The notes under the pieces are model-generated. The model worked only from the letters and a program-made list of their open reading frames with translations. It had not been told where the DNA came from and searched no databases. A stretch of DNA of 36,531 nt from Nemertoderma westbladi (lineage: Eukaryota; Animalia; Xenacoelomorpha), in the NCBI GenBank assembly GCA_032718475.1, contig JAUCBJ010000177.1, positions 1-36,531 of the forward strand, given 5' to 3'. Each line of letters opens with the position of its first letter. Position 1 is the first letter of the stretch. This document shows positions 1-36,060 of the stretch, in pieces. A program made the translations under genes and the position numbers.

Positions 1-35
1 CTACTACTCCTTCCCGCAGGACTCTCGAAGAGAGA

Positions 36-2522
36 ATGCCACAAGAACGAATATACCAAGTAAACGATTGGGAAGTGGAGAGCAGTGAGGTGGACGAACT
101 AACTGAGGGAACACCATACTCCTCAGATAATGACGACATCTACCAACTCTTCGATGAAGAGAACACAATCGACCTACTTACAGAAAACAAAACTTGGAAA
201 AATCAGGTGAACCTATGTCAACTGATTCGCCCATCGGAACCCATTGATTACAATGACGAACTAAATGACGAGATAGAGCGCTACAACGCTAGAACTCGGG
301 ACGAACTCACCGTACGATTCTTTACTCAAGAATTGGTAGAGCCCAATTCATACGATAAGGCTCTATCGATAGAAGAAGAAAGAGCCAAGCAAATCCAGGA
401 AACAACTACACGTTTTTTAAAGGACCAAGGTAGATATGAAATCGGCCTACCATTTCGAAAACGAGACCCTAGATTTATAAATAACAGACCCTTGGCAGAG
501 AAAAGAATCGCTCAATTACATCGACGCCTTACGGCTAATGCTTCAGCTAAAGAAATGTACCAAACTCAGTTGAAGAAATTTATAACAAAGGGATACGCGG
601 AGCGAGTACCGGAAGGAACACCAGTGACTGAGAGAACGTATTACTTAACACATCATTACGTTCCCAAACCCGGTAAACCCCACGAATTACGAGTCGTATT
701 CGATGGCTCTGCTCTATATATGGGCCAATCCCTCAATTCCGAGTTGTTACCAGGACTCAACTTACTCCAATCTTTGTTGGGAATACTTTTGAGATTAAGA
801 CAATATTCCATCGCGTTCGCCTCCGATATAGAAGGAATGTTCTTACAAGTCAAGGCGCTGGATAGAGATAGAGACAGTCTGATATTTCTGTGGTGGCCTG
901 AAGGAGACCTCAACCAGAAACCGGTAGAGTACTGGATGACCATCCAGGCTTTTGGGATCATATCAAGCCCTTCCAACGCCTGCTCCGTGGTGCGAACCAC
1001 TGCGAATGACAACCGAGACGCCTTCTCCAAAGAGGTGATAGACAACATCAAACGTAATATATACATGGACGACAATTTAAGGTCCCTTCCATCAGTAGAA
1101 GAAGCCATAGATGTCGCGAAAGGAACGGTAGAGTGTTTGAAAAGAGGTGGATTTCGACTGACGAAATTCACCAGCAACTCCCATGAGTTTCTGGAAGCGA
1201 TACCGGTAGAAGACCGAGGAGCGAAAGACCAAGACTTAATAAAGGACGATCTTCCAGAAACCAAGACGCTTGGCTTGAAGTGGGACACTGAAAGAGACAT
1301 CCTGTTTTTTCAGCTCAAACAGCGAGATAATCCAGTTCGGACCAAACGGATTTGTTTAAGCATCCTGAGCACTTATTTCGACCCATTGGGATTTATTAGC
1401 CCAGTTATATTGATTGCTCGGAGTTTAGTACAACAAATGTGGCTTGAAAACCACTCATGGGACGATCCACTTAAGGGAGAACTGTTAAAGAAATGGATGA
1501 AATGGGAAGATTCTCTACCTGCCATCGAGAGCTTTATAATTTCCCGTGCATATTTTGGTCATGTTCTCCCTACTTATTCCTATCAACTCCATGTGTTTGG
1601 AGACGCCAGCGACATGGGAATAGGTATAGTGGCATATCTGCGAGTCGAAACTCCGGATGGAATCAAGGTCGCCTTGGTTACCTCTAAGGCATTGATTAAC
1701 AACAAGTTAAAGGTTCCTCGAGCGGAGTTAAAGGCGGCTTTATACGCTACAGCCATCGGCCGGAACGTAACAGAACAAATCGACTATCCACTGGAGAAAA
1801 CTGTTTATTGGACCGACGCTTTACTCGTGTTGGAGTATATAACCAATGAAGTCTGTCAGTTCAGCGTTTTTGTTACTAACAGGGTACCTATTATTCTTAG
1901 TCGCACAAAGATAGATCAATGGAGACATTGCCCTGGTACGATTAATCCAGCCGATATCGCCTCCAGGGGAGCGACTCCACAGGAACTGATAGATACTCCA
2001 GACTGGTTGGGTGGACCCGACTTCCTGAGCAAGGAAGAGGATGAATGGCCTCCTCACCTTACTACGGCGGAGATTAGACAAGCCAAGGGAGCGGAGACAG
2101 TCAAACCTAAAACCCGGGCGAGTAAATCGAAGTTATTTAAACCGACGATCGATCTATCTGTATTACATACTTCCGGGAAAGATGCTTCGGATCCACAATC
2201 CCTCAACACAAATAAGTCTGTTGTGGAAATTAGAGATAGAGATTGGAAATCTGGAATACCAGACGTCTCGCAAGGAATCTCACCCATGCTGCAGAGAGCA
2301 ATGCATCACTACAGTTCCTGGAATCGGCTCTGTAAAGCCGTCACGTATTTAAGGAGATGTTTTCATCATCACTACTCCAGGACGAAGACCATTAGTGATA
2401 CCGCTCCATTGACATCTGCGCAAGTTCATGTTATTAAAAATTTACCCAAATATAAAACATCCGACCGGTTTCTAAAGGAGAAAATTAGTCACCAGGAGCA
2501 TGAAGAAACATCGCTTCTCTAG
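36..2522 (+). CDS. pol: Pol, RT + RNase H part (frame is open from position 3, so it is 5'-truncated by the window)
   Basis: RT: YYLTHHYV..K...LRVVFDGS, DIEGMFLQV, FGIISSPS, YMDD, LGLKWD. Pao RNase H: LHVFGDAS, PRAELKAA, YWTDA, NPADIASRG. Confidence 0.95.
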   Translation: MPQERIYQVNDWEVESSEVDELTEGTPYSSDNDDIYQLFDEENTIDLLTENKTWKNQVNLCQLIRPSEPIDYNDELNDEIERYNARTRDELTVRFFTQELVEPNSYDKALSIEEERAKQIQETTTRFLKDQGRYEIGLPFRKRDPRFINNRPLAEKRIAQLHRRLTANASAKEMYQTQLKKFITKGYAERVPEGTPVTERTYYLTHHYVPKPGKPHELRVVFDGSALYMGQSLNSELLPGLNLLQSLLGILLRLRQYSIAFASDIEGMFLQVKALDRDRDSLIFLWWPEGDLNQKPVEYWMTIQAFGIISSPSNACSVVRTTANDNRDAFSKEVIDNIKRNIYMDDNLRSLPSVEEAIDVAKGTVECLKRGGFRLTKFTSNSHEFLEAIPVEDRGAKDQDLIKDDLPETKTLGLKWDTERDILFFQLKQRDNPVRTKRICLSILSTYFDPLGFISPVILIARSLVQQMWLENHSWDDPLKGELLKKWMKWEDSLPAIESFIISRAYFGHVLPTYSYQLHVFGDASDMGIGIVAYLRVETPDGIKVALVTSKALINNKLKVPRAELKAALYATAIGRNVTEQIDYPLEKTVYWTDALLVLEYITNEVCQFSVFVTNRVPIILSRTKIDQWRHCPGTINPADIASRGATPQELIDTPDWLGGPDFLSKEEDEWPPHLTTAEIRQAKGAETVKPKTRASKSKLFKPTIDLSVLHTSGKDASDPQSLNTNKSVVEIRDRDWKSGIPDVSQGISPMLQRAMHHYSSWNRLCKAVTYLRRCFHHHYSRTKTISDTAPLTSAQVHVIKNLPKYKTSDRFLKEKISHQEHEETSLL

Positions 2523-3858
2523 CACAATGATAGATGGGTTAATACGTGTTGGAGGAAGGCTCACCAATGCGCCATTATCCTTTGACACTAAATTCCCCAT
2601 ACTCATTAGAAATCTTGAAGTACAAATCAAGATGATTGTAGATGTTCACAGCAAACTTTATCATGCTGGTAGAGAACGAGTTCTTAGCGAAATCCGAACT
2701 CGCTATTATTTTTATAAACCCCGTAGAGCTCTGAACCAAGTTCTTAGGAACTGCATACCCTGTAGGAAAGCATTCAGTAGGCCTTTAACACAGCGAGAGG
2801 CAGAATTACCTAGGGAACGAGTAAGCTTCTATGAACCACCTTTTACTAATACTGGTGTAGATTTATTTGGCCCTATTGAAGTATATCGTGCTAGGACTAT
2901 AGTCAAGAGATGGTGTGTCATCTTCGTATGCATGACTTGTAGAGCCATTCATCTCGATATGGTGAACGATCTGTCTACCAACAGCTTCGTCTTAAGTTTA
3001 CGCCGACAGATCGCTCGCTTCGGGACGAGTAATACCATGAGATCGGATAAGGGAACGAACTTCATTGGTGCCAACAACGAAATACAGGCTTACGTGAAGG
3101 ACTGGAACCAAAGACAGGTGGACGATCAGCTAAGGATAACAGCGTCTAGCTGGACCTTCAACGCCGCCGACGCCCCTTGGTGGGGAGGAAGTTGGGAGAG
3201 ATTAATTAGAAGTGTCAAGACCGCATTTCACTTTATAGTGCCATGCCGCGCGTATCTCACCGACGAACTTTTGCGGACGTTAATGGAGGAAATAGCTGCC
3301 TATCTCAACGAGAGACCGCTTATGCCAGTCTCATCGAGTCCCGATTCCCTGGAAGCGCTAACACCCGCGCACTTCCTACTGAAGAAACCTGTAGCCATGC
3401 TCCCACGATCGGAGATTGCCGACGGAGACGAATACTGCCGTCAAACTTGGCAACTTATGCAGTTGCTATCCCGTCGTTTCGCTGACCATTTCGAGAAACA
3501 TTATCTGCCCACGCTACAACTTCGAACTAAGTGGTTTGCGCAGCAAGAAAACGTCAGCGCCGGAGATATGGTGCTTATTGTAGATCCAGACCTCCCACGT
3601 AAACGGTGGCAGACAGGTCGTATCATCGAGACTCACATCTCGGATGATGGTTTAGTGCGCTCGGTAGAACTCGTCGTCATGCGGCGTAACTTCAAGAAGC
3701 CAGGTATAATCTTTGAGACGCAACAACTCAACCGCCCAGTTGGTCGTTTATGTTTACTGGAAAGAGACAGAGAACTCTCCGGAAACTATGGAAGGCAAGA
3801 CACTCTTCCCACGACCACCTCCCTAATTCCTCAAACATCTAGGGACTCCCCAACGTGA
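2500..3858 (+). CDS. pol: Pol, integrase part (out-of-frame continuation of pol; the annotated ATG is probably not a real start)
   Basis: GLIRVGGRL, HHCC finger (HSKLYH...CIPC), DDE core (GVDLFGP, SDKGTNF, PWWGGSWERLI), Pao C-terminal W..GRI.....DGLVRSV. Confidence 0.95.
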   Translation: MKKHRFSSTMIDGLIRVGGRLTNAPLSFDTKFPILIRNLEVQIKMIVDVHSKLYHAGRERVLSEIRTRYYFYKPRRALNQVLRNCIPCRKAFSRPLTQREAELPRERVSFYEPPFTNTGVDLFGPIEVYRARTIVKRWCVIFVCMTCRAIHLDMVNDLSTNSFVLSLRRQIARFGTSNTMRSDKGTNFIGANNEIQAYVKDWNQRQVDDQLRITASSWTFNAADAPWWGGSWERLIRSVKTAFHFIVPCRAYLTDELLRTLMEEIAAYLNERPLMPVSSSPDSLEALTPAHFLLKKPVAMLPRSEIADGDEYCRQTWQLMQLLSRRFADHFEKHYLPTLQLRTKWFAQQENVSAGDMVLIVDPDLPRKRWQTGRIIETHISDDGLVRSVELVVMRRNFKKPGIIFETQQLNRPVGRLCLLERDRELSGNYGRQDTLPTTTSLIPQTSRDSPT

Positions 3859-3862
3859 TACG

Positions 3863-3877
3863 TCTGGAGTGGGTGTA
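3863..3877 (+). promoter_or_regulatory. Polypurine-tract-like motif + TGTA (PPT 1)
   Basis: TCTGGAGTGGG-TGTA starts 5 nt after the integrase stop, the usual position of the BEL/Pao PPT/LTR junction. Confidence 0.55.
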
Positions 3878-3969
3878 TGACTATATTATTTTATCTATTT
3901 TATTATATTTTATATGTGAACATTATTATGTACTTTATTATAATCGTTTTTATTCAATTTTATTTAGTA

Positions 3970-5400
3970 GAAGGTTATTTTAGATTATTTGGTAGATTAG
4001 TGCAATATATTAGTGTTTATTACGTAATTACATATATATAATATATATTTAGTGTGACGGCGAGAAATAATTTTTCTCTTTCCTTACTGTCCGTATCATA
4101 TTATAAATACGTGACTACAGTAAGATGAAATGTCCGTACTTATTAAAGTACAATAAAGCCACTACTATATTTAAGTATTATTGGTAGGCAGAGTATTAGG
4201 AATGCAAAGTTCAGATCATCGTGTCTCGGCTAAACCAAGCTCTGGGTAGACCTTGGAAACGACTTGCCTCTTCACACTGACATTGCTTCGTGCGATATTG
4301 CTCTTCTACCTTATATTAAATAATACATATAGTAGCGTGATGTCCATATAACAGTAGCGTAAAACGCAAATAAATCTGTTAAACCTTTTGACCATCTGTA
4401 ATTCTAGTCGATTAAGATATCGCGGCACCCACCGATATACTTGAAAGACAAATTCTAGAATCAGTGGTTAACGTCCCCAGACAAGTTCTGGAATAAATTG
4501 GTGCCCATCTTGAATATTAATTTAATATTTATTAAAATCTGTAAAATTCAGATCCTTTAAAATTTCTAGTCAATTAAGATATCGCAGCACTTACCGATAC
4601 TCTTAAAAGACAATTTTATAGAATTAGGGATCCTCAGTCCCCAGACATGCTCTGGAATAAAAAATTGTGTCAATTTTAACATCAAATAATAAAATTCACG
4701 GGAAGAAATTTAAATTCATATTTTAAATGAATTTCATAAATTGTCGTTTTGTGCAATTTATAACATTCCCAAAATTCCATTAATTAATAGATCATGGGAG
4801 CGGAGATTCATCCTATTGAGTGTATTAGAGTGCGAGAATCTCCAACATATAGTCAATAGCCGATAAAATTAATAAAATCATGCATAAAGAGGATATTGAC
4901 AATTAAAGAATTACTATTAAATAGCATCCCAGATCTGTATGCATGAGAATTACCCTAATTCTACCGCTAGCATTCTATAATGTCACCATAGCAACACCCA
5001 CGCTAGAATTAGAAGCAAGTTAAAAGAACAATAGAAAGCTTGTCCCATTGCATAGCATAGAGAATACATAGCACACTGTTAGTATCCAAGGATACACAGT
5101 AATAATGTGACATTCTGGAAGGCACTGACTAACGGACAAATGGCCTGTATGTGTACAATTGGTGACAGTTGTGTGGAATTTATGCGTTTATAGGTGAATG
5201 TTACTGCTAAAGTATGTTTACAGTAGCTAGTCGCAATTGTAAAAGTAGCCCAACTCTCCTATAGAAAGAACCTAAGTGGATCCAAGCCTTTGGGACGGAC
5301 AGTGGAGTGACTTGTGCCGGTTATCGTTGTCGTGCTGTTGCTACATGTTGGCGTAAACACCGCGACGACGGTACATCGGCGCTGAGAATCCCACTGTCCG
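3970..5400 (+). ncRNA. Highly structured non-coding RNA region (array of stem-loops) between pol and the accessory ORF
   Basis: Stems read by eye: 4083-4124, 4162-4335, 4401-4461, 4564-4623, 4802-4843, 4878-4946, 4955-5012, 5040-5139, 5144-5194, 5296-5400; several use G-U pairs on the + strand. Confidence 0.6.
4400..4661 (+). repeat. Diverged ~100 bp direct repeat (4400-4497 / 4562-4661), each copy forming two hairpins
   Basis: TTCTAGTCRATTAAGATATCGCRGCAC..ACCGATA..CTTRAAAGACAA...GTCCCCAGACA.G.TCTGGAATAAA in both copies. Confidence 0.85.
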
Positions 5401-5479
5401 GGGGCAAAGAGAAGTAGGCAGCGACGCCCGCTCGCCTAAATATAAACTCATTTGATATTAATAAACTCAGATAGCAGAT

Positions 5480-8400
5480 ATGACGGAGTTGATAGAAGAT
5501 GATCTTGGTATTAGGGAGCGATATACTCTACCTTTGCAAGCATTTGTGGATAGCTTAATACGCGGTGAAGCCGATCCAACCATTACGGAGGACGATGGTC
5601 GTTATATCGAACCGCCGATGTCCCAAGAGCAACTTGCGCGTGAATTGGATTATCGAAAATTCACCGCTCGCTATACGAATCGTAATGGTACGTATATGGA
5701 CTTCTTAACTACCGGCCATCCTATCGATTTACATGACACGGACGATGTAGATACAGAGAGGGAAATGGTTCTATTTAAATATCATACCCAGTGGAGTCGT
5801 AACGATAAACTGAGAATAGATCACGAAAATTCTATTCGTAATAGACTGGAAAGAGAAAACGTTGAAGAACCGGATAAACGCATCGACTTCAACGAATACC
5901 TAGAATTTTTGAGAGAAACCTATCTCAACATCGCCAGTCAGCAGAACCTAGAGACTCGATATCCTCAAGGTATACATCATGACCCTGTGGTAGAACTCAA
6001 ACGGCTCTATTTCACGATGATGTATCTTACCGCCGATCATCCACTACCTGTTATCCCGGATAGTTTTGAACAAATGGAGGAATATTGCAAAACTGGAGAA
6101 CGATCACCCGCGTTTCCTCTGCAGGACGTACGTCTTTGGTATTATTGTGACGAATGCCCTAGACCCAACCAACAAACTGAAAGACATAAACATCCGCGGA
6201 GACGTTGCGCTAAACACAGTTTTACGCGTTACACTTACGGGAGTTTCGAGCGAAACCTGTTCGACGTACCACCTACGATCGCTCGTCTTAAACGATCACT
6301 GAATAAACCCATGATCAGAGTTCCGGAATACTCGGTCAGGCCTCCTCATTCCCTAGTGAGACCTCAAACTCTTGATCCTAACAGTATCACTGATCCTCCC
6401 GAACTATATTCCCTGTTCAAAGACTTAGTGTTACCCGAACAATTAATCGGTGGTGTTCCGGTAGTGGGTTCGTTAGACATTCGCCCATCCTACTTAGCTG
6501 GATTGGGACGCGGGCAGCTAATATCGCCCTTTGATCCTTACAATCGTCCAGGATTAAACCCGATGCAACCTGCCACGGAAGTCGAGGAGAGCGTTATAAG
6601 AAACGCTTTAGACGCTATTCGACAGAAGATCGGAAAGGGAACACAAGATTGTTTAGAGAAACGTAAATTACAACAACAAGTCCAATCGGTGAAGGAGTTA
6701 GCCTTGCCACAGTTCGATAGAGAAATCCAAAACCTCGAGGAAGACATCGAGCTTGGACGCACGTATTCTCTACAAGAATTTTTAGATGAACGCTTACAGA
6801 GACAAGCGGAAGAAAATCTACTCGAGGAGAAACACACGAAACTGGAAGAGAGAGAAGAAGCCGCTTTAGCCCAACCTGAAGCTCAAATCCTTATGACGGA
6901 CCTCTACTCTCAAACCATTCGTCATCCCTCGATGATTCCATATTTCGGAGACAAACTCTTCGCGACGATACAACCTCAACCGGTTGATATCAGTACAGGA
7001 TCGCAAAATCTTATCGCTGACGCCCCTATGTTACAGCGTCCGCCGATAGAGGCCGCTCGTGTTGACGGTATACTCGTTGAACCTCCGGACAATCGAGCGG
7101 ATCTTGTCCGTCGTATGGTACACGATGTCAACATACGCGCTAGACCTTTACAGAACTCGTTTTATGGGATTAAAGACCACCCTTATTACGTTAATCTGAC
7201 TCAATATTATATGGTAAAACCAGAAGACCCGACGCATAATTTAAAGTTTCTACCACTAATAAATCCTCTAGACATTGTCGAACTCGAACAATTGCAGAAA
7301 CATCTGGATCAGTTAGTAAAAGTAAACTCATTTAGAAAACCATATAACATTTCTAGAATCGAGAAAGATATAGAACCCCCTTATAATCTCGATGGATTTA
7401 TTAAAACTCGATTAGTCCATTGGAATCTAGATGTATTATTTGAAGAAGAGAAAATACAAAGATATGGAAATGTGGAGACGTATACCACTCGGCACATGAA
7501 GTATAGTGATCTCCCTGACGCTAACCAATGCACCACCTTGTGGCATCCAGTAGGGATGACCCTAGAGAACGCCACCAAGGAGTGGAATGAAACTCTTAAT
7601 GTTATTGAGATGTATGGAGTTGTCACCTACGATAATGAAGGTAGCGTTCCGGTCGGAGAACTAGGAACTACGCGCATGATCCACATACGCGGATTAGCTG
7701 GTTCTACCCACGTGTTTACTCGAGCGTGTTCCGACGTGATTGATTATTCCTTTGAAACTCTCACCGAAACACAAAGGAATCTCCGACATGGACAATTCGA
7801 ACTCGCGCAGCGTTACGTCATTGACACCGAACGCAAACCGGCCATGGGTATCGATGGATCGATGTTACCCCAGCCCGTACTCGAGATGTTGTTCAACGAA
7901 AGAATCCTTAAAATCGGCTCAGCTGTTTATGGAGATCTCCAAAACGACTTTCGGAATATGGAGAACATTCCATACCCTTTCGTTGATACTCAGCTGATTG
8001 CTCCCTGGGCAGAAGGTCGAGGTTTCTTCCGCACCATGTATGCTAATACGTCTAGCAACATTACAAAGGTGCAACGAACTTCCATCGGACATCTTGCCTT
8101 TCAGGAATACGGATGGAATTTCAAAGTCGGAAATCCCATTAACTATCAACAAGTATACGGAGACCATTATTCTCGATTATACTTTGATGGACCATTGACC
8201 GCACCTGGCGCCGTGTATAGCTTCATGAGTGTTCCACTCCGTCCCTCCTTAGCTATATACACGATCTTTGAAAACACCGCACTTGCCGGTTGGCTAGCCG
8301 ATGTGTGCAGTCGTACTATACGCGCCCATCCATTAATACTTGGGACCAAACTCGCTAAGCTAGATGAACATAATAAATTCATCCGCTTTGAATGTTTCCG

Positions 8401-8893
8401 GCGATTTTTAACCCCGTTCCGCAACGTGGATAGCCAATTTAAAGACCGCGCTTTGACCAAGCTCAGCCTAAGAAACTCAGCTGCAGAGAAGTTGGATAGC
8501 GCTGGATTCGCCATTTTCCAAGAGATTTGTATATCGAACTTGCACTCCTCTGTTATACAAAGACCTCGAATCCCCACAGGTTATTCTGTCGTGGAAATTC
8601 AGACAATAGGTCCACCTGAAGAGACAGACACGCCCACCTCAGCTATGCACTTGGAAGACGAACCAATATGTCTAGAATCTGAGGAGATTCAACCTATCGC
8701 GCCCCGGAACAGCGACAACGATTACATCATAGAATGGTATCAAGGTCCACAGTGTCTCACTGCGTACGATTATCGGCATGCCAACTATGTTTCTAGGCAA
8801 CGTTGTCGGTTATATGGACACAAACGTCCGCTGTTCCTATTTCCAAGAACAACCGACTATGGAACTTTATTGCGCATATTGCAGACTCAATAA
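5480..8893 (+). CDS. Intronless 1137 aa accessory protein: Cys/His motif, coiled coil, DEDDy 3'-5' exonuclease (WRN-exo/EXD2/Mut-7/RNase D-like)
   Basis: ExoI VVTYDNEG (D718, E720); LPQPVLEMLFNERILKIGSAVYGD (ExoII D819); FVDTQ; TSIGHLA; ExoIII-like YTIFE; also YYCDEC...HKH....C and a Q/E/L/K-rich helical segment. Confidence 0.75.
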   Translation: MTELIEDDLGIRERYTLPLQAFVDSLIRGEADPTITEDDGRYIEPPMSQEQLARELDYRKFTARYTNRNGTYMDFLTTGHPIDLHDTDDVDTEREMVLFKYHTQWSRNDKLRIDHENSIRNRLERENVEEPDKRIDFNEYLEFLRETYLNIASQQNLETRYPQGIHHDPVVELKRLYFTMMYLTADHPLPVIPDSFEQMEEYCKTGERSPAFPLQDVRLWYYCDECPRPNQQTERHKHPRRRCAKHSFTRYTYGSFERNLFDVPPTIARLKRSLNKPMIRVPEYSVRPPHSLVRPQTLDPNSITDPPELYSLFKDLVLPEQLIGGVPVVGSLDIRPSYLAGLGRGQLISPFDPYNRPGLNPMQPATEVEESVIRNALDAIRQKIGKGTQDCLEKRKLQQQVQSVKELALPQFDREIQNLEEDIELGRTYSLQEFLDERLQRQAEENLLEEKHTKLEEREEAALAQPEAQILMTDLYSQTIRHPSMIPYFGDKLFATIQPQPVDISTGSQNLIADAPMLQRPPIEAARVDGILVEPPDNRADLVRRMVHDVNIRARPLQNSFYGIKDHPYYVNLTQYYMVKPEDPTHNLKFLPLINPLDIVELEQLQKHLDQLVKVNSFRKPYNISRIEKDIEPPYNLDGFIKTRLVHWNLDVLFEEEKIQRYGNVETYTTRHMKYSDLPDANQCTTLWHPVGMTLENATKEWNETLNVIEMYGVVTYDNEGSVPVGELGTTRMIHIRGLAGSTHVFTRACSDVIDYSFETLTETQRNLRHGQFELAQRYVIDTERKPAMGIDGSMLPQPVLEMLFNERILKIGSAVYGDLQNDFRNMENIPYPFVDTQLIAPWAEGRGFFRTMYANTSSNITKVQRTSIGHLAFQEYGWNFKVGNPINYQQVYGDHYSRLYFDGPLTAPGAVYSFMSVPLRPSLAIYTIFENTALAGWLADVCSRTIRAHPLILGTKLAKLDEHNKFIRFECFRRFLTPFRNVDSQFKDRALTKLSLRNSAAEKLDSAGFAIFQEICISNLHSSVIQRPRIPTGYSVVEIQTIGPPEETDTPTSAMHLEDEPICLESEEIQPIAPRNSDNDYIIEWYQGPQCLTAYDYRHANYVSRQRCRLYGHKRPLFLFPRTTDYGTLLRILQTQ

Positions 8894-9707
8894 CTTGCAT
8901 ATTTTTGCGGTTTGCCCTCAATTTATGACTCAATGTCACCATTGTCAACTAAAGGGACACGCCAGTTTCGATTGCCCTTTTAATCACGATTTGGAAAGCG
9001 TAGATGAAATGATCACACTACGTTACATCAGAGCTTGGGAAGCGAACGCTGATTTACATTGTGATTCGCGCCATCGCTATTATCCCGGACGCGCTTACGA
9101 AGGAGTTTATGCGTTCCATCCTTATCTATTCGCTTCGGTCGAACAGAAATCACGCATATCGAGTTACGAGCTACTGAAGCGCGTCGGAGAATGTATTTCA
9201 ACCAAATTCGTACGCAAATTTCTCAGGAGTGTTAATCCTAGCGACCTTCATTCCTATAACTTAATCAATTATATCCGTCAGGATCCGGACTATGGAGACT
9301 TATTTGTTAACTCACACCCCGAGTTACAGGAAGTATATCGATGGCCTTACGAATACCGAGCCCGCGAACGCGAGTTGGGAAGAACCATTAAACCCCGGAG
9401 GTTTCTAACTGCCTATGGTCCACCCACGGCCCTCGTTCAGACCACTTGTAAAGGACCCGTAAGAGCGGCTGTCTTAAAACGAGCTCTCAAAGCCGTTAGA
9501 CCCCTCTCCCCCGACGTTGATGTCAATCAACCCGGTACTTCGACTGGCGGATACACCGACCATAATCCTACACCCTCTGATGCAATCATATTGCACCCTT
9601 CACCCAGGAGTTATAGCCCTCCTTGTAAAGTGGCTCGCCCCAAAGAGAAAAGGACTCTGGCTAGCTTTAAAAAACTGCGTAAACGCCGTCCACGCAAGAA
9701 AGACTAA
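8778..9707 (+). CDS. Zinc-knuckle protein with a basic C-terminus; probably the frameshifted C-terminal part of the 5480 ORF
   Basis: CAYC-x5-H-x4-C and CHHC-x4-H-x4-C; ends KKLRKRRPRKKD; overlaps the upstream ORF in the +1 frame. Confidence 0.7.
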   Translation: MPTMFLGNVVGYMDTNVRCSYFQEQPTMELYCAYCRLNNLHIFAVCPQFMTQCHHCQLKGHASFDCPFNHDLESVDEMITLRYIRAWEANADLHCDSRHRYYPGRAYEGVYAFHPYLFASVEQKSRISSYELLKRVGECISTKFVRKFLRSVNPSDLHSYNLINYIRQDPDYGDLFVNSHPELQEVYRWPYEYRARERELGRTIKPRRFLTAYGPPTALVQTTCKGPVRAAVLKRALKAVRPLSPDVDVNQPGTSTGGYTDHNPTPSDAIILHPSPRSYSPPCKVARPKEKRTLASFKKLRKRRPRKKD

Positions 9708-9774
9708 CTGTTTAGAGTATTTACATATATTAGAAACTGTGATTTTTGTATATTTATAAACTTGAATCCCATTT

Positions 9775-9789
9775 TCTGGGAGCGGTGTA
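9775..9789 (+). promoter_or_regulatory. Polypurine-tract-like motif + TGTA (PPT 2)
   Basis: TCTGGGAGCGG-TGTA, ~70 nt after the last accessory ORF; resembles PPT 1. Confidence 0.55.
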
Positions 9790-10950
9790 AAAGCTTTTGC
9801 GGATATACTCAGTCCCCCTCGCCCGCAAGGTACCGTTATAGGTGTTTTAACGGACATAAAAGTCATTCTTCTATATGTGTGCTTTGGCGGACATGGTAAG
9901 GCAAAAAACCCGCAATGCGACAAATACCCTGGCACAGCTTAGCCTTGATGATTCAGATTACGACATCTAACAGCTGGTTGCTGACATGGAAACGGCCATT
10001 GGACACATGGTTCTTTGTTTAGCTTAACAGCCAATCAGAGCGATTTTTTCTGTCGATGTGGAGATAATTGGCCGATCGTGCTAGGAGTGTTCAGTCTTAC
10101 TGTTTTTCTTGATACTGTTGTGTTGTTTCTATCTAGGCCAGGAACACCGGCTCTAGAGTCAATTCGTTTTCAGACTTTAGAAGAAACATTAGTAGGCTTT
10201 AGATTATAGAGCGTATAACTGTTATCATAACATAACATATCATTCATAACAACCTTAACAACTCAATCGGCACATATATTGTCATATCATATCTTAACCT
10301 ACCGTCTTAATGCTTTTTACTGTTGTCATAATTTGTATCAGTTGGTTGAATATTATTTGGAGAACATTTATAAAGAACCCAAATTTCCCAATTTTCTTGA
10401 TACACTACAGGTTAGAGAGACAGGTTACATATAGCGATTGCGACTTATATTATTGTGGTTTGTAGTGAATTTAATGCTATTTGATAAGCACTACATGAGT
10501 CAGTTGCTGTTCTCTTTATATATGATAAAATTCATTGACGGTCGGCAAATTAGTGTGCAGTATTGTGTGTTACCGGTAGTGTGCATGATTGTGACTGATA
10601 ACTAAGCATTTCCTAAAGAATGCGCCTCATACGTGAATCATAAGCCTTACCGACTTACCGTTGTGATTAGTATAAGTCATATCTCTGTTTACCTAGATAG
10701 AGCGCCACGTCCTAAAGGAACTGTTAATATTTCCCGAAAGTGAATAATATTAGTCAGAAATTATTTATTAACGATCAATCGAATAATACAGTAAGCTTAC
10801 ACTGCAATAACAATCTAAGCCCTCAGAATCCAGTCTCCCGGGTATATCCAGCGGGTGAATGGACGCGCACTAGGCTGGCTTCTGCTAATGTTGTGTATAT
10901 TGGTATTAAATATTTGTCAATTTCTAAAGTCTATTTATAAACCAAAAGAC
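9786..10950 (+). mobile_element. Candidate 3' LTR (right boundary not determined)
   Basis: Starts TGTA after PPT 2; CCAAT at 10031; non-coding. No 5' LTR in the window to confirm it; the end coordinate is a guess. Confidence 0.35.
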
Positions 10951-12611
10951 ATATAAATTTTGGCAGGTTAAACTGCTAAAGGTCTTCAAAAGCGCGTACA
11001 AAAGTTTAGAAATTTCCCAAGTTGAATTTGCGTGTGGCCTTCGAGAAGCTAATATAATAGCAGTTAATTAATTAAGTTGGTTAGGGTAAAAACAGCATTT
11101 TCAACATTACTTTTAATGGAAATTAATTATTTTAGAGTATAAGATTTAAATAATTATACTTAAAAATTATACAACTATATTCCCCATACCCCATTCTATT
11201 ATAGTTTTTAATTAGTTCAAGTGATTTGCATTAAGAAATGTGTTTTTAATTGATCTAAACGTAATTAAGTTATCAAAATGCCCTCGTCACTCTATAACTC
11301 CCTCATTCCTTGGCATGCTTGCTATTGCCTACAGTTTGGGAACCAGTCCAATCATATCACCACTACTTGGCAATGATAATTACATCTGTAGGACATAGGC
11401 ATGCACTACTAGTGTAAGGTGACGTACTGATAAGCCAACTTGCTTATTATTTATCTCGCAAAATGATTGCCTGAGTATTTAATCCTGATTCTTTAGAATA
11501 ATTAGCTAAATAATTTCGTTGAGGTGTTGACATGATAAATTAATATTTCAGTATCTATACTATAGGCTATAAGGTAAGTTTTAATATTTTTTACAAATTG
11601 GGTCGCATCTACGCCTAAAATTTCATGTCTGCATGAAATTCAAATCTGCAATTCATTAATCCTCTGTGCGCCTTTGGGTTGGGGTGGTTCGGTCCGGCAG
11701 TCGTGCAGATTAAGAGGGGGTTGAAGGAACTTTTCTCTCTTCTTTGATTTATTCTTATTGGCAGTTTGGTCAAATCTCTTATTTATTTATTTAAATTTCT
11801 GGTTTGGTTTTGTTAGATTTTGGGAGAGAATTGCTCAATTTTAATCTGTATCTGATAACTGACCATCGTGCTGCGCGAAGGCCGCACGAACGTGTAAGGA
11901 TTATCTGCCTATTAAACAGTTCATTGTAAGGTAACAAGAAAAATATATACGAATAACAGTATATTTAAAATGGAAATAATGTTGCAATTTTTCCGATCGA
12001 ACAGTAATAATTAAGTAGTTTTTTTTATACGTAGAATTTAATATTGAATTTAATTAATCTGAAATTCATAATTAAAAGCATTTCACAATTTGTAAACATA
12101 AAAGCTCCAATGATATAAATTCTTAATTTTTATAATGTCCTCTATTAGAATTTATTCGATTTGCATTTATGTTTAGCGACAGTTGACAATCTCTGACACT
12201 TGAAGAAAGGAATGTACTCCTACAGTTTAGACCCTAGTAGTCAATGTTCAAATAGTTTTAGCTTTAATCATGCAACCCTGTATAAACCATAACCCAATAT
12301 TGTACTGCCTAGAATAATGTCACCTGATAGTCTACGAATTTATCTAATACTGTTGGTTATGGTAAATTGATGCCTTACATGATTTCACCCAATTTCTCCA
12401 CTCCTTACAGCGTTTGAAGCACGTTCGTTCTACCTGCCATTATGATTATTACATTAATTAATTATTATAGCTTCTCCAGCTACTAGTAAAGGAGAGGTCA
12501 GGATTTCCAATTACAATGATGTGTCTGTTGTCATATTTCAATGAGGCCTACGAGCGAAGTAAAAAAACTCTTACATTAGTTCGACCCCTCTCCCCATTCC
12601 TTCCATTTTCG

Positions 12612-12882
12612 AATAAAATTACATACTCTAAGTAGTAATCTAGTACTTAATAAAATTACATACTCTAAGTAGTAATCTAGTACTTAATAAAATTACATAC
12701 TCTAAGTAGTAATCTAGTACTTAATAAAATTACATACTCTAAGTAGTAATCTAGTACTTAATAAAATTACATACTCTAAGTAGTAATCTAGTACTTAATA
12801 AAATTACATACTCTAAGTAGTAATCTAGTACTTAATAAAATTACATACTCTAAGTAGTAATCTAGTACTTAATAAAATTACA
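12612..12882. repeat. Perfect 37 bp tandem repeat, 7.3 copies
   Basis: Unit AATAAAATTACATACTCTAAGTAGTAATCTAGTACTT, identical copies. Confidence 0.97.
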
Positions 12883-13821
12883 GATCTCGCCTCTGTTAAA
12901 AACGCCCGTAATTTTTGGTCATGGCAGTGATGGCAGTCATGGCAGTGCATTAAGGAACACAATTAAGGAAGCAATAAGGGACAAAATTTACTGTTTAACC
13001 AACAATTTTTTTAATTTACAAAATTGAATCTATTGGGCAATTTATGGGGCAATAAGGAACCACATTAATTATAATTAATGATAATTTAATGTATAGTAGT
13101 TGTAGAATATGTGTAGGGCTCTCATGCATAGATAATCATAAAATTATAATATGCATACTGTGGCATGTGGAGTGGGACGGCCATACCTGAGCGGGAGTTT
13201 ACTAAAAAAATATATTCTCCGTAAGAGCCTTGGTATATGCCATTTTTTGAAAATTATATAAATTACACAAAACATGGATTGTACCGAACAGCCGTTCAGT
13301 ACTTACACCAGGGGTGTCGCGAGGTGTTACAAAAACGATGTAGGACAATTCGGTAGCGGACAATTCAGTCCCATTTATTTAGTGTTTTGGGACAGACCGA
13401 ATAGTCCGGGACCGAATTAAATTAAGACATAAATTTAATAGCTATTTATTCTTGGATTTATACATATTAATATGCTAAATACTGTTGTATAGTAAGTAGC
13501 TAAATATTTGTAATTCAAATTTCATAGTATTTTGTTTTTGGTCGGAATTATAGATTAAGAGAGATTCACAGTTTCCCTTAATGCATAACATGCCGTTCCT
13601 TGATGACCTTCTAGGTGGAGTATTAGGGAATCATTTTATAATTTTTTAAAAGCCGATAACTCAGTGGAAGAAGAAACAAAACCCGAAGATCAGTAAACCA
13701 GGGGTTGATTATCATGACAACTTCCCAAGTTCAGACTATTTATCACTTCCGTAGGACCGCTACTTAATGACAATACGGATTGTAAGTTGAAAATGAATTT
13801 TTATATTTGTATAAAAATTAT

Positions 13822-13827
13822 TTTATT
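13822..13827 (-). terminator. Polyadenylation signal candidate for CANT1
   Basis: AATAAA on the - strand ~65 nt downstream of the stop codon. Confidence 0.5.
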
Positions 13828-13890
13828 GCTTCAATAAATAAGTACTGCCTCTGCCTCATAATATTATACGGTACTTTTTCATTCAAACTA

Positions 13891-15102
13891 CTAAATAAAT
13901 TCCACACCTTCGTATTTAATATTTCCGGCTATTTTAGTCTCGGTAACTAGAACGTTCCCGTCCACGTTAAATACCGTTATATATGTCGAAACATCGCCCG
14001 AGTTCTCCTCCGACTTCAAGGCGACGACGAGTTGTTCCTGCGAGTTCGGAACGAACTTAAACGAGGAGAAACCGCGGAAGAGGTTGAGCGGAGTGACTTC
14101 GGCCACATTGAGTCGGGTGAACGATTCGTCGGCGGTTATCATTATGTTACCGGCGCGTCGCTCGTCGTCCATCTCGTTGTATCGGAATCGCGACACTCTG
14201 CGGGGAAGGAAGATCCACCGGTCCCGCGGGGCCGACCAGCATACGGCCTCGTGGATGATGTATCCGGGGGCCGCGATCCCGGCGGCCGAGCGTTGCGAGT
14301 CGTAACGCGTCGACCAGTCCATGTGGACCACCTGCCCGGTCACCGAGATTGCCTTTACCCACTGCGGGTCGCGATTCAACGGCTCCCCTTCCGGGGTCGT
14401 CCACTCCTTACCCAACCCGCCCACGTACAGAACACGATCCTTTACGGTCATCCACTCTGCTTTGAACCCTTTACTAACAGTCCCGTCACCGTCTGCGAGA
14501 ATAACCCAAGGATAAACGCGATTCCCGACTACCTTATAAACGATTCCAGTTCGATCGTCCACCGTTAATAATTCCCCGTTAAACACGACGAGTTCCGATA
14601 ACTCCATCCCTCGCCCGCCTAACGAATACTTCGACTCCAACCGCAACGGCTCTCGATCCCAGACAACCGCGACTGTCTTCAGATCATAGGAAACCTGCAG
14701 ATCACCTTTCAGTAAATAACTGACCCATAAATTTGGTGCATCTTTTACTTTGGAATTTTGATCAAGGTCGGAAACTATCGCAATTCTGTAGGTATAGCCA
14801 AAAGAGTTCCGCAACGGTAAGGATAAAGGGTAGGTGTAGTTGTAATTCAATACCGGTGTAGAGATTGTGTTACTAGGAGAACTCGTAGATGGAATTAATA
14901 TAAGTATGAGACATATAAAAGAGAAAACGAATAATATAAATATAATTCTCGAATGTTTCGTTAGAAGACGAGTGATCCTTGTTGACATATCCGACCTGTG
15001 GTGGATCCCCAGAGGGGCACGCACTTTCGCATTCCAGTCTCGCATTTTGTCGTCAGCCAAATTGAAATTTTTATCGGAACACAACAAAGACGTATCTGTC
15101 AT
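13891..15102 (-). CDS. CANT1: Soluble calcium-activated nucleotidase 1 / apyrase (type II membrane anchor), intronless CDS
   Basis: N-terminal TM helix; IAIVSDLD, GRGMELSEL, DDRTG, GFKAEW, GGLGKEWT, HEAV, LPRR, GFSSFKF, KSEE, KYEGVEFI-stop. Confidence 0.95.
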   Translation of the reverse strand: MTDTSLLCSDKNFNLADDKMRDWNAKVRAPLGIHHRSDMSTRITRLLTKHSRIIFILFVFSFICLILILIPSTSSPSNTISTPVLNYNYTYPLSLPLRNSFGYTYRIAIVSDLDQNSKVKDAPNLWVSYLLKGDLQVSYDLKTVAVVWDREPLRLESKYSLGGRGMELSELVVFNGELLTVDDRTGIVYKVVGNRVYPWVILADGDGTVSKGFKAEWMTVKDRVLYVGGLGKEWTTPEGEPLNRDPQWVKAISVTGQVVHMDWSTRYDSQRSAAGIAAPGYIIHEAVCWSAPRDRWIFLPRRVSRFRYNEMDDERRAGNIMITADESFTRLNVAEVTPLNLFRGFSSFKFVPNSQEQLVVALKSEENSGDVSTYITVFNVDGNVLVTETKIAGNIKYEGVEFI

Positions 15103-16347
15103 TATGGTTGCTGGGCTGGTAAACCCTCTCGGTCAAACTTTACACAAACACAAGCGAACTGATAGACTTGCAGTCTTTGTCAGTTCAGCAGTTAGTTGTG
15201 GTAAAAAATGAACAAACTCAACATTTTCACACTTCTGCACTTATGTAACTGGTTCTGGTAGTGGTAGGCCTACTACAGCTGTACAGTAGGCCTACTACAG
15301 TATATAGTTTACAGTATAAGCATAAGGGCAGAAGGGTATCGGTACATGATGGTAGGCCCAGATTGCGGAACTATGTGGTTGTGTGAATTGTGAATATCGG
15401 AAACTTAAGGTGTGACTATTTAGAGAACCATTCTCCTATATTGGAGTCCATGTTGGGCTCTAACTCAGTAACTGCTAAGGATACCAAATCTCTGGATGTC
15501 ACTCACACAATAAACTGATAAAGCTGGGCCGTGTTCTCTGTGTTACTGTGTTAAGTGCAACTCACACATCGCCAACCAGACCATGAACCAGACACTACTG
15601 TATAATATTGGAGGTGTTCCATTTGTCCCTCCAAGTTTGAGATTTGAATAGTGCCTCCTCCGCGCTTCGCAGCACATTGCTTTCGCGGAGAACCACCCTA
15701 TGCACAAATAAAACTGTAGTACGGTACGCATATTTACAATTGGGGTGTCGTTTCAGCCTATGGCTGTGGCTGTATGGAAGGAATTCTGGGGTTCTAATTG
15801 GATGTTCCTTCAATAAGCTCACCTCATTGGCTAACACTCTCCCATAGCCAAAAGGTGTGTCGGTTCAGCCTAATTGCAAAAAGGGATGTCGCTTGGGGAA
15901 ACTGTCTGAGTGAGTATCGGTAGGCCTACTGCTGTACTGCTGTACTGACAGAAAAAAATATTAAAAGCTAAAGCTCCTGACAGCCTGCTGAGCCCATCAG
16001 TATCTGCCTACGCCTGTAGGCTAGGTGCTAGGTCAATAAAATGGTAATAGGTCAGTAAACTATGGTAACAGGTATAAATAGGTAGGCCTAGGGTAAGCGG
16101 ATTGTGAGCTTCAATGCGTGGTCAGTTATACAGTAGGTACTGTAGACCCTTTCTGCCTTTGACCTTAAGACTGATAGAGGTAGCTCCAGCAGGATAGTCC
16201 TATTGTTTTTAAATAAGACTACGTCTGGTTGTCACTACTGCACTGTCCGTACTCGCTGACATTTAGGATGGCTAAAACGTCTGTCCTTATCTGATCTGAT
16301 CTGATCTGATCTGACGGTATCTGATACTTGTTCCACCTTGGTTCAGA

Positions 16348-16640
16348 GCGCACCTTGGTGTAGTGGTTATATTGAATTCACATCTCTCGGAGGTTGTGGG
16401 TTCAACCCCGGCATGGGGCCAAGGTAGTTTTCGTTTCGGCACGAATGTTTTGAAGGGTTTAGCAAGGAATCTCTGCCTTGCATCCTTAAATGGTAGCTAA
16501 ATGAGTACTGGACTTTCTGCCTATGTCAGCATGTGAACTTTCCCCGGTATTCCCCTTAAACCCGGGGGGGGGGGGGGGTCAATATAATACCTCCCGCTCT
16601 GAAACTAACGATACTAACTATAAAGACTAACTGAAACGAA
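16348..16640 (+). mobile_element. tRNA-derived SINE
   Basis: A box TGGTGTAGTGG (16356), B box GGTTCAACCC (16399), TAAATGAGTAC core (16498), ACTAA-rich tail. Confidence 0.65.
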
Positions 16641-17361
16641 CTAAAAGGAATTCAAATAAATTAGCTAGAAATTTTAAATTTGTTTTTAGCGGATGGTGCC
16701 AAAATTTGGTGCCGGTCCATGTGAAGAATACCGCCCATGTGAAGAATACCAGGATTTCACTTTTCGCGGTCGACTTTTATTGGAATTTTATTTTTGAAGA
16801 TTTTAATTCTTTTTTAATTTATCTTTATTGAGTGTATTATAGAGCTTATTTATGTGTTATAACCTGCACATATACTAATTCGTTTATTGTTTTGTTTATA
16901 TTCAGCCAGTCAGCCCTTCTGTAACCTGTGTTTTTGGTGAAAACCTGGTATTCTTCACATGGGGGTAACTGCAAAGTGAAATAAAACGGCAGAAAGTCTG
17001 GTATTCTTCGCCCATGTGAAGAATACCAGGATTTCATTTCTCGGTCGATTTTTTATTGGTCGATATTTTTTATTAAATTTATCTTTATTAAGTGTTTTAT
17101 GCGCGTGTGCGATGTCCTTGATTTTTTGAGGGGGGTGATCTATTGATCAGTCAGTCGGACGGTTAGTAAGAAGGTGGGTGTAAACAAGCCGCCGCGGTAA
17201 CATATTCTCCTTTCCCTCAATTGGTAGGTAACAAAATCGTTTATTATTGTTTTGGTTAGAAAACCCTGTCTCGGTAACCTGCTCCTTTCCCTCAATTTGT
17301 AGGTAACAACGTCGTTTATTGTTTTGGTTAGAAATTACAGCCGCTGTAACCTGGTCTTTTC

Positions 17362-18528
17362 GGGTTTGACTAAATACGCCACCGACAACCACCGACACCT
17401 TTCGCATACCACCGACTACCACCGACAACAAAAGACACAAACCGACACAAACCGACAGGTAAAATCACAAACCGACAGTATACTGACAACTTCGGCAATG
17501 TTAGTAAACTATTTCAGTACATGATTATACAATTTTTATTTCCAGTCCAAATATTTATAACAAATTATACCCAGTAAAAAATCCCTATGCGTAACGCATT
17601 AGTGCCACATCAGCACATGCAACATTCGTAAAAGGCTGAAAGGTGCGTGGAATGTTATTTAAGATTCGTGAAGCCTTCGTCAGTGGTTCGTCAGTCCGAA
17701 TAATTTAGGTAACGAATGTGTCTGTGCGTATAGTATTCCAGTATTCGTATCGCATGTGAGATTTCACTTGTCAAATATATTCGTGGCTCATCATTCGTGG
17801 CACATGCGATACGAATGCTTCCACTCCACGCAAAAAATAATTCGTGGTTCATTCGTTCGTGGCACATGCACATCCGATACGAATGCATAGCCGCGGCACG
17901 CTTAAAATTTTTCGTGGTCCATTCGTGACGTGACGCATGCGATACGCGTGCAAAGCATTCTCAATTAGAGTACATACTCTAATTTGGCCAATCACAATTC
18001 GGCAAATAATCGAACATGGTGTTATTAGTTAGTACCGGTAGCTCTCCCCCATAGAGTACACTATGCTCTCCCCCCTTGTTACTAAGTCAGCTAGTTTCCA
18101 TGTGCTATATATTTAATGGGTTACCCAGTAATTCTTAACTCCCGTTTATTATTTTGGTTCCCCCATCGGACAGTATGTAATAATAATAATAATAAAACAT
18201 ATATTTATAGCGCCTTTACCAAGAAGGTTCAAAGGCGCTTTGAAAGCTTATGTAAACCTGTTCCCTTTACAAACATGCTTTATATAATATCTAGAGGTAA
18301 TGTACTGTAGGCTATACATATTTGTAGTATTAGTAGTCCTACTGTATTTGGACTGGAAATAAAAATTGTATAATCATGTACTGAACTGCTGAAATAGTTT
18401 ACTAACATATTGCCGCGAAGTTGTCGGTTTGTGATTTTACCTGTCGGTTTGTGTCGGTTTTGTGTCTTTTGTTGTCGGTGGTATGCGAAAGGTGTTGGTG
18501 GTTGTCGGTGGCGTATTTAGTCAAACCC
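17362..18528. mobile_element. Mutator/Foldback-like MITE (element C)
   Basis: ~190 bp TIRs (17362-17553 / 18345-18528) starting GGGTTTGAC, with internal ACCGAC repeats; perfect 9 bp TSD GGTCTTTTC (17353-17361 / 18529-18537). Confidence 0.88.
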
Positions 18529-23671: not shown

Positions 23672-24114
23672 ATGTGTTGGCAAGCAGTGTTTTTCGAGGT
23701 GTTTGTTATTATATATTTATAGGAAGGCCTAGTATATATAATATCCTATAATGGCTATAATCCCAATAGAATAGCCTATATAATAGGGTGGCCTAGTGGT
23801 TGTTGTCTCGGCTTCCACCTTCGAATCCGACACCACGCTCAAGAGACCCAGTAAAGTCGAAACGCGTATGTGGTTTGGAGAGATATGGGATATTGATAAT
23901 AATAATTTCAATTAAAATTACGCGATTCCTAAATTTGTACACTACCCAGTTAAAAAGTACGCATGTGATGGGATTAGTCCTACAATTGCGCCAATAAAAG
24001 ATAAGTTGTTTTCGGTAAAATAAACTTATCATTCGAGGTTATAAGACCCCCAGATCCCTTCCTATAAATGTCAAATAATTATGGTTTATTATTGAATAAT
24101 TATGCCATCGTTTT

Positions 24115-35832: not shown

Positions 35833-36060
<228 letters not shown>

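What the first reader, a model, noticed from the sequence alone, without database searches (positions are those of the whole stretch)
5480..9707. BEL/Pao retrotransposon apparently carrying a large DEDDy exonuclease / zinc-knuckle cargo where env would sit
Seen: an intronless ~4.2 kb coding module lies on the pol strand. It contains a Cys/His motif, a coiled coil, a WRN/EXD/Mut-7/RNase D-type exonuclease signature (YDNEG; LPQPVLEMLFNERILKIG...D; VDT; SIGHLA), two CCHC knuckles and an NLS-like tail, and is followed by PPT+TGTA. No signal peptide or TM segment is visible, so it is not Env. Known: host DEDDy proteins (Mut-7/Nibbler, EXD1) act in small-RNA pathways, and extra DEDDy ORFs have been reported in some rotifer LTR elements. 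Inference: this ~1400 aa multidomain form could be an element-encoded RNA-processing, anti-silencing or RT-accessory protein.
Basis: partly seen in the sequence, partly recalled or inferred. Interest (0 to 1): 0.88.

Follow-up and report, generated by a model that had tools for sequence, protein, structure and literature searches.

The report
BEL retrotransposon-linked exonuclease–zinc-knuckle gene
A highly repeated animal BEL/Pao retrotransposon region carries, beside its pol gene, a conserved extra gene that likely encodes an RNase D-like RNA-trimming nuclease with zinc knuckles rather than an envelope, a cargo type we found described only for other transposon groups, though whether it lies inside this element's terminal repeats is not settled.

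Summary
Mostly real, placement open. Downstream of a BEL/Pao pol (Peptidase_A17, DUF5641) lies a same-strand coding module, but in this copy it is two overlapping frames (5480-8893, 8733-9707), not one 1,400-aa ORF. Its middle domain is RNase D/DEDDy-like: the top two of 18,950 NCBIfam models are RNase D (E 0.002, 0.017), the Atlas points to PF01612, and the only homolog among 1.84 billion proteins (P0002, E 3e-6) has the same exonuclease-then-CCHC-knuckle layout in one frame. Exo I/II/III align, with Glu at the last acidic position in both. Structure predictions failed, so the fold is not shown. The module is not a host gene: it is massively multi-copy, keeps its frame between diverged copies, favours synonymous change and has pol-like codon use; no transmembrane segment. 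Unsettled: the 1.6-kb spacer after pol itself has LTR hallmarks (purine tract plus TG right after pol, 1.8-3.2x pol depth), as does 9786 after the cargo. ORF3 inside the element (about 0.5) competes with a tandem or partner unit (about 0.35). DEDDy ORF3s are known in rotifer Gypsy-like elements; none of nine paper searches showed one in BEL/Pao. New variant of a known kind.

The parts
3..2522 (+). BEL/Pao pol, first open frame (RT, RNase H/Peptidase_A17); runs off the window's left end
   Evidence: PF05380 E 2.7e-36
2476..3858 (+). BEL/Pao pol, second open frame (integrase, DUF5641)
   Evidence: PF17921 E 1.6e-7, PF18701 E 1.7e-20
3866..3877 (+). purine tract plus TGTA 8 nt after the pol stop: true PPT/LTR start, or relic/central PPT
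   Evidence: tract kept in X4 and X5 variants whose flanking bases differ (loose ends)
3859..5479 (+). 1.6-kb non-coding multi-copy spacer; candidate LTR 3874-5345 in the rival reading; 98-nt duplication 4402-4497/4564-4661; TATAAA 4102; six AATAAA within 3874-5346
5480..8893 (+). cargo frame A, 1137 aa from Met 5480
   Evidence: no Pfam match
6146..6217 (+). Cys/His cluster, possible zinc site (no family match)
6575..6890 (+). charged, likely coiled-coil stretch
   Evidence: 70% E/K/R/Q/L in the 40 aa from 6734; limits are my reading of the sequence
7568..8329 (+). RNase D/DEDDy-like 3'-5' exonuclease domain; Asp718, Glu720, Asp819, Tyr927, Glu931
8733..9707 (+). cargo frame B, 324 aa stop to stop; frame break lies in the overlap with A
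8871..8975 (+). two CCHC zinc knuckles
   Evidence: align with knuckles 2-3 of P0002, 0 of 1000 shuffles reach the score
9630..9704 (+). basic C-terminal tail (NLS-like or RNA-binding)
   Evidence: 13 of 25 residues K/R
9778..9789 (+). second purine tract plus TGTA
9786..10251 (+). candidate 3' LTR (end between about 10232 and 10251); no AATAAA; no similarity to 3874-5345
   Evidence: depth rise 1.55-2.36x in 4 of 4 runs, collapse between 10198 and 10253

Best explanation
A high-copy BEL/Pao retrotransposon family carries, next to pol and on the same strand, a frame-conserved non-envelope gene whose product is likely an RNase D-like DEDDy 3'-5' exonuclease joined to CCHC zinc knuckles, probably placed inside the element as a third ORF and predicted to trim RNA 3' ends to the element's benefit. 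Shown: BEL pol, the module, its multi-copy state, frame conservation, no TM segment. Inferred from weak profile matches and one homolog: the DEDDy fold, and that A and B are natively one protein of about 1,400 aa. Inferred: expression from its own subgenomic RNA started or spliced in the spacer; knuckles and basic tail bind single-stranded RNA, the coiled coil oligomerises, and the D-E-D-E/Tyr site cuts 3' ends. Of possible substrates I favour host small RNAs or their precursors aimed at the element (counter-silencing, acting in trans), over trimming of the element's own RNA or cDNA; this last step has no direct evidence here.
For: RNase D models rank first and second of 18,950 (E 0.0021, 0.017). 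Atlas: 0.90 to PF01612 clusters, 10 of 10 best family-bearing hits in one family or clan. Sole homolog P0002 (E 3.4e-6 in 1.84 billion) has exonuclease plus three knuckles in one frame, beats 300 of 300 shuffles on a 36-sequence exonuclease profile, and 5 of its 6 weak phage tblastn hits are Bacillus phages, the one checked falling on a PF01612 domain. Pair profile versus exonuclease alignment: score 27.1, 0 of 60 decoys reach it; Exo I/II/III fall in the expected columns. Element-borne: 80,302 and 23,235 contigs laid on 1-12000 in two runs, all bins through pol, spacer and cargo covered in 4 of 4 runs; synonymous 8 of 13 listed cargo variants against 0.28 neutral (p 0.013; pol 11 of 16); gaps in 4 of 15 cargo pieces, 2 of 12 pol pieces, 17 of 23 spacer pieces (p 0.007 cargo v spacer); codon use r 0.49-0.58 with the two pol frames, -0.01 with the neighbouring apyrase gene. 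Inside placement: tract+TGTA 78 nt after the stop, depth 1.55-2.36x higher there in 4 of 4 runs, falling off by 10253; no depth step up at 3874 (falls 4-6x in 3 of 3 runs) and TGG-after-ACA occurs five times in the spacer; one contig joins pol 3768 to 4984 in another copy (side only 27 nt). In X5 an abundant derivative lacks the nuclease (joint 5848-8653), so it is dispensable in cis.
Against: No Pfam match for the domain; alone it does not beat shuffles on the 36-sequence profile (298 of 300 shuffles as good; 19 of 60) and only marginally on a 5-sequence RNase D-type profile (15 of 500). All profile scores are far below curated cut-offs and cover mainly the Exo II region. The Atlas warns that shuffled proteins reach 0.9 in 4-10 of 100 cases and shared features were 151-160, under its 170 guide. 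The fourth acidic residue is Glu, not Asp, so catalysis is uncertain. The spacer has LTR hallmarks: tract+TG right after the pol stop kept across variants, TGTA...TACA ends (X5 variants read TGTG and CACA), TATAAA and six AATAAA (2.1 expected, p 0.018), mean depth 1.8-3.2x pol in 4 of 4 runs and a 1.3-2.1x step down after 5346 in 3 of 3. The 9786 candidate has no AATAAA. No single contig spans pol to cargo, and summed contig depth is not copy number. In X5 cargo depth is 6.6x pol, so many cargo-bearing copies lack intact pol.
Confidence: 0.45

Rival explanations
1. Same protein, different place: 3874-5345 is the LTR, so BEL pol ends normally and the nuclease gene is the first ORF of a second unit sharing that LTR (a tandem copy whose extra ORF precedes gag-pol, or a non-autonomous partner that carries only the nuclease and borrows RT and integrase).
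For: Purine tract+TG at the canonical spot after pol, kept in X4/X5 variants; TGTA/TACA ends with a TGTG/CACA variant pair; TATAAA and AATAAA; spacer depth 1.8-3.2x pol in 4 of 4 runs; step down after 5346 in 3 of 3; TGG 4 nt past the end and Met 135 nt further; cargo far more abundant than pol in X5.
Against: No step up at 3874; no discordant flanks among listed loose ends (454 rows hidden); a 336-nt X5 contig and others run unbranched through the spacer; the TGG motif is common there (5 found, 1.06 expected); PBS match to a tRNA not testable; it leaves the second tract+TGTA and the depth rise at 9786 unexplained, and the two LTR candidates share no similarity.
Confidence: 0.35
2. The domain is a DEDDy-fold RNA-binding module without needed catalysis (as for Egalitarian or Exd1), and the protein is an adaptor that localises or packages the element's RNA. 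This can hold with either placement.
For: Glu at the Exo III Asp position in both this protein and P0002, long insertions, knuckles, coiled coil and basic tail; Egalitarian works with its catalytic residues mutated and Exd1 is inactive (10.1101/2025.08.03.668247, passages).
Against: Acidic residues at all four positions and the Tyr are kept between two proteins only about 30% identical, which suits a retained metal site.
Confidence: 0.3
3. The exonuclease likeness is chance and the module is an unclassified retroelement protein, such as an odd gag-like ORF with knuckles.
For: No Pfam, PDB-sequence or fold match; weak single-sequence scores.
Against: Four separate libraries or methods point to the same superfamily at the same stretch; knuckle spacing and the lack of any BEL gag family match do not suggest BEL gag.
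Confidence: 0.1
4. A host DEDDy gene or retrocopy lying next to a BEL insertion by chance.
For: Host DEDDy genes exist (general knowledge); no single contig spans pol to cargo.
Against: Cargo contigs reach depths of 5,700-14,000 like pol contigs (4,500-5,700) where others lie at about 35; copies differ by 10-15% with internal deletions typical of element derivatives; codon use follows pol, not the host gene; no close homolog among 1.84 billion proteins.
Confidence: 0.03

Closest known systems
Rotifer Juno1/2 and Vesta2/5 LTR retrotransposons with DEDDy ORF3 (PMC5408684; parts 1-3 of 5 read, abstract to discussion)
   Same: LTR element with an RNase D-like DEDDy ORF in place of env; altered catalytic signature; function untested there too.
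   Different: Those are not BEL/Pao by the paper's clade names (Juno, Vesta); their motif is DEED, here the fourth acid is the changed one; their DEDDy ORFs lack coiled coils, and no knuckles are described on them; this product would be about 1,400 aa. Kinship to the rotifer ORFs was not tested (sequences not available).
Belpaoviridae / BEL-Pao (PMC8742986, whole text; PMC3118150, passages)
   Same: pol families and RT-RH-IN order, PPT before LTR.
   Different: Described with gag, pol and at most env in 4.2-10 kb; 'exonuclease' does not occur in PMC3118150's main text. If the cargo is internal this element exceeds 10.2 kb without its gag and 5' LTR.
Terminons (PMC6431247, passages) and Dada DNA transposons (PMC3706591, passages)
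   Same: Mobile elements carrying DEDDy exonucleases, proposed to process 3' ends.
   Different: Penelope-like and DDE-transposase elements; in Dada the domain sits inside the transposase.
P0002 (unnamed ENA protein, 648 aa, singleton cluster) and an Atlas cluster of PF01612+zf-CCHC proteins from Euglenozoa
   Same: Exonuclease followed by CCHC knuckles; P0002 shares the Glu at Exo III.
   Different: P0002 lacks the 700-aa N-terminal part; its genomic context could not be read, so it is not known to be on a transposon.
Host RNase D / WRN / EXD1 / Egalitarian / Mut-7-Nibbler and viral ExoN (PMC7968707, abstract)
   Same: DEDD(y) superfamily; viral ExoN shows nucleases hijacked for proofreading or immune suppression.
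   Different: Very low similarity; no orthology shown; Mut-7/Nibbler roles are recalled, not tested.
Plant Retand elements (PMC11963269, abstract)
   Same: Precedent for kilobases of extra sequence and ORFs between pol and the 3' LTR.
   Different: Gypsy lineage, antisense ORFs, TRP28 domain.

Membership tests
BEL/Pao (Belpaoviridae), for the pol | Pao-type pol domains in RT-RH-IN order | tested here: met
   PF05380, PF17921, PF18701 over cut-off in that order; RVT_1 weak
BEL/Pao (Belpaoviridae), for the pol | paired LTRs with target-site duplication, gag, PBS for tRNA-Arg or -Gly | not testable with these tools
   5' part is outside the window; no genome held
ORF3 of an LTR element | lies between pol and the PPT/3' LTR of the same element | tested here: inconclusive
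   two PPT+TGTA candidates, 3866-3877 and 9778-9789, each with depth support
ORF3 of an LTR element | multi-copy with the element and frame kept between copies | tested here: met
env | signal peptide and transmembrane anchor | tested here: not met
   best 19-residue hydropathy 1.33 and 1.20; hydropathy only, no dedicated predictor
DEDDy exonucleases (PF01612 / RNase D) | profile match over the curated cut-off | tested here: not met
   17.4 bits against 298.95 for TIGR01388 (full-length equivalog), no PF01612 row
DEDDy exonucleases (PF01612 / RNase D) | Exo I D-x-E and Exo II D in order | tested here: met
   Asp718, Glu720, Asp819 align with the family columns and with P0002
DEDDy exonucleases (PF01612 / RNase D) | Exo III Y-x3-D | tested here: inconclusive
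   Tyr present, Glu at the Asp position in both proteins; register uncertain by one residue
DEDDy exonucleases (PF01612 / RNase D) | DnaQ/RNase H-like fold | tested here: inconclusive
   models at pLDDT 32.0 and 29.8; no Foldseek match at E 0.001; best VIA Z 3.0
DEDDy exonucleases (PF01612 / RNase D) | metal-dependent 3'-5' activity | not testable with these tools
   needs an assay
rotifer DEDDy ORF3 pool | clusters with Juno/Vesta/Terminon DEDDy ORFs | not testable with these tools

The most novel reading that the evidence does not exclude
An animal BEL/Pao family has amplified to very high copy with its own active, knuckle-guided D-E-D-E nuclease that destroys or mis-trims the host small RNAs aimed at it, supplied in trans to nuclease-less derivatives, possibly from a dedicated LTR-bounded helper unit that carries nothing else.
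Probability: 0.18. Interest if true: 0.85.

Novelty: new variant of a known kind. Interest (0 to 1): 0.56.

Why it matters
Enzymatic cargo in LTR elements is described from rotifers, with no activity or role shown (PMC5408684). A selected, high-copy case tied to BEL/Pao would extend it to another LTR superfamily and, because copies with and without the nuclease coexist in one host, gives a way to ask whether animal retrotransposons encode their own counter-silencing or RNA-processing enzymes.

Tried and rejected
Whole genome: none held, so LTR pairing and target-site duplication could not be read. Homolog searches with nothing beyond P0002: word-seeded, length-limited; metagenome contigs; viral contigs; plasmids. 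PDB sequence searches: nothing for the domain; only knuckle hits for P0002. PHROGs: nothing meaningful. Two AlphaFold2 runs gave pLDDT about 30, the second on a two-row alignment whose N-terminal part was misaligned; fold searches on it found nothing (WRN exonuclease at ranks 40 and 46, E 9-9.6, is noise level); this neither shows nor excludes the fold. Rfam and ARAGORN: nothing. No RNA holder listed among sequencing runs, so expression is untested. A listed joint 10410-5283 was set aside: the loose end looks like a diverged version of 5255-5282. An LTR end at 11173 was rejected because the loose end resembles the window's own continuation and 10385-11850 behaves as another repeat. Similarity of the region after the knuckles to P0002 is chance (976 of 1000 shuffles as good). 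My mid-session reading that spacer and pol depth are 1:1 rested on single best bins and was withdrawn after the bin means. Earlier findings of the scan: none returned.
Full report
What is there. The window opens inside a BEL/Pao pol, split into two frames, 3-2522 and 2476-3858, with Peptidase_A17 (E 2.7e-36), the integrase zinc domain and DUF5641. After 1.6 kb without a long frame comes the module of the finding. In this copy it is two overlapping frames: A, Met 5480 to 8893 (1137 aa), and B, 8733-9707 (324 aa). The listed features are present: Cys/His cluster, charged stretch, two knuckles (one with an extra residue), basic tail, no hydrophobic segment. The copy is therefore decayed; that A and B are natively one protein is inferred from the homolog below. 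One contig piece within 8653-8791 has a gap against the window, while another over 8303-8791 has two gaps and equal length, so this is not settled.

Is it a DEDDy exonuclease? Likely, by several weak lines. For aa 697-950 the two best of 18,950 NCBIfam models are RNase D (E 0.0021 and 0.017, far under their full-length cut-offs). The ESM Atlas gives 0.90 to PF01612 clusters, with its caveat that shuffled proteins reach 0.9 in 4-10 of 100 cases. An exhaustive search of 1.84 billion representatives returned one protein, P0002 (E 3.4e-6; 31% identity over 150 residues), a singleton with an exonuclease-like N-terminal domain and three CCHC knuckles in a single frame. On a profile built from 36 bacterial and phage PF01612 domains (loci), P0002 scored 8.8 bits and 0 of 300 shuffles reached it, whereas frame A alone did not beat shuffles (298 of 300 as good), though its best stretch was the same Exo II segment. 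On a 5-sequence RNase D-type profile 15 of 500 shuffles matched frame A. The pair as a profile scored 27.1, 0 of 60 decoys as high; A alone 19 of 60. A joint alignment puts Asp718/Glu720, Asp819 and Tyr927-Glu931 in the Exo I, II and III columns; both proteins have Glu where the family has the last Asp. Both structure predictions failed (pLDDT 32.0, 29.8) and the fold searches were empty, so the fold is not shown.

Is it part of the repeat? Yes. Four public runs cover pol, spacer and cargo throughout; 80,302 and 23,235 contigs were laid in two of them, and single cargo contigs reach depths of 5,700-14,000 beside pol contigs at 4,500-5,700 and others near 35 (the tool warns that summed depth is not copy number). 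One of the four runs carries another organism label. Of the differences listed (40 of about 2,077, plus one coding row), 8 of 13 in the cargo are synonymous against a neutral 0.28 (p 0.013), and 11 of 16 in pol. Gaps occur in 4 of 15 cargo pieces (7 gap letters per 610 substitutions), 2 of 12 pol pieces and 17 of 23 spacer pieces (56 per 324); I left out four pieces beyond 10400, one spacer piece and one piece straddling the pol stop. These are the longest or best-supported rows, not a random sample. Codon use of A correlates with the two pol frames (0.49, 0.58) and not with the neighbouring apyrase gene (-0.01). Deletion derivatives exist for pol (136-1912, about 2100-3730) and for the cargo (5848-8653, 6834-9546); in run X5 cargo depth is 6.6 times that of pol.

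Is it where env would sit? Unresolved. For: a purine tract and TGTA follow the cargo stop by 78 nt, depth rises 1.55-2.36-fold there in 4 of 4 runs and collapses between 10198 and 10253, giving a 450-470-nt LTR candidate; one set of variants shares its first 15 nt and then diverges. There is no step up in depth at 3874, a contig bridges the pol stop into the spacer, and one other copy joins 3768 to 4984. Against: a second tract plus TGTA lies 8 nt after the pol stop and is kept in two variants whose neighbouring bases differ; 3874-5345 reads TGTA...TACA, with TGTG and CACA seen in X5 variants (not shown to be one copy); it has TATAAA and six AATAAA (2.1 expected), 1.8-3.2 times the depth of pol in 4 of 4 runs and a 1.3-2.1-fold step down after 5346 in 3 of 3. 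The 9786 candidate has no AATAAA (expected by chance 0.14, so its absence is weak), and the two candidates are unrelated in sequence. The 5' end of the element is outside the window and no genome is held. I put ORF3 inside the element at about 0.5-0.55 and a tandem or partner unit at about 0.35.

How it likely works. Inferred: a separately expressed accessory protein in which knuckles and a basic tail bind RNA, a coiled coil oligomerises, and a D-E-D-E/Tyr site trims 3' ends. Conservation of all acidic positions across 30% identity favours a retained metal site (about 0.6), but an RNA-binding role without catalysis has precedent (Egalitarian, Exd1; 10.1101/2025.08.03.668247, passages). Abundant nuclease-less derivatives suggest action in trans. 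Counter-silencing is my preferred role; processing of the element's own RNA or cDNA, as proposed for rotifer elements, is nearly as plausible. None of this was tested.

What is known. DEDDy ORF3s are described in rotifer Juno and Vesta elements, with a DEED motif, without coiled coils and without demonstrated activity (PMC5408684, parts 1-3 of 5), and in Terminons and Dada (passages); two reviews cite only these (passages). The ICTV profile lists gag, pol and env for Belpaoviridae at 4.2-10 kb (whole text); the BEL/Pao survey has no 'exonuclease' in its main text, nor have the Troyka and Culex papers. Nine full-text searches listed no report of such a gene in BEL/Pao; most hits were seen as listings only, subscription papers, Repbase and GyDB were not searchable, and no supplements were read, any of which could hold an earlier mention.

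Verdict. A real, selected, element-associated RNase D-like exonuclease-knuckle gene; new variant of a known kind; position relative to the LTRs and function open. Interest 0.56.

Noticed in passing
window 13891-15132 (-): Intronless apyrase (CANT1-type) gene with an N-terminal hydrophobic anchor, PF06079 E 1.6e-118; used as host control.
   Followed up: partly
window 10385-11850: A separate multi-copy repeat right after the LTR candidate, with many deletion joints and a short inverted match 11124-11152/11476-11504.
   Followed up: partly
window 15722-20191: Long inverted repeats 15773-15903/20024-20154 (93%) with further nested inverted pairs (16273/19242, 17361/18458, 17513/18345): likely nested non-autonomous DNA transposons or a foldback element.
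   Followed up: no
window 31656-32468, 27960-28824, 12612-12882, 24113-24373: Tandem arrays of 35, 63/120, 37 and 24 nt units.
   Followed up: no
window 26467-27160 (-): Broken non-LTR reverse transcriptase fragment, RVT_1 E 3e-13; 34925-36530 looks by eye like another LINE remnant but had no Pfam match.
   Followed up: partly
window 4402-4497 and 4564-4661: 98-nt internal duplication (81%) in the spacer, possibly enhancer-like.
   Followed up: no
window 3866, 4797, 9779: The same short G-rich purine motif occurs after pol, mid-spacer and after the cargo; motif was defined after the fact, so significance is unknown.
   Followed up: partly
window 5283-5346: In run X5 depth jumps about six-fold at 5286 because a high-copy subfamily is diverged upstream of it; could mark a conserved LTR end or leader.
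   Followed up: partly
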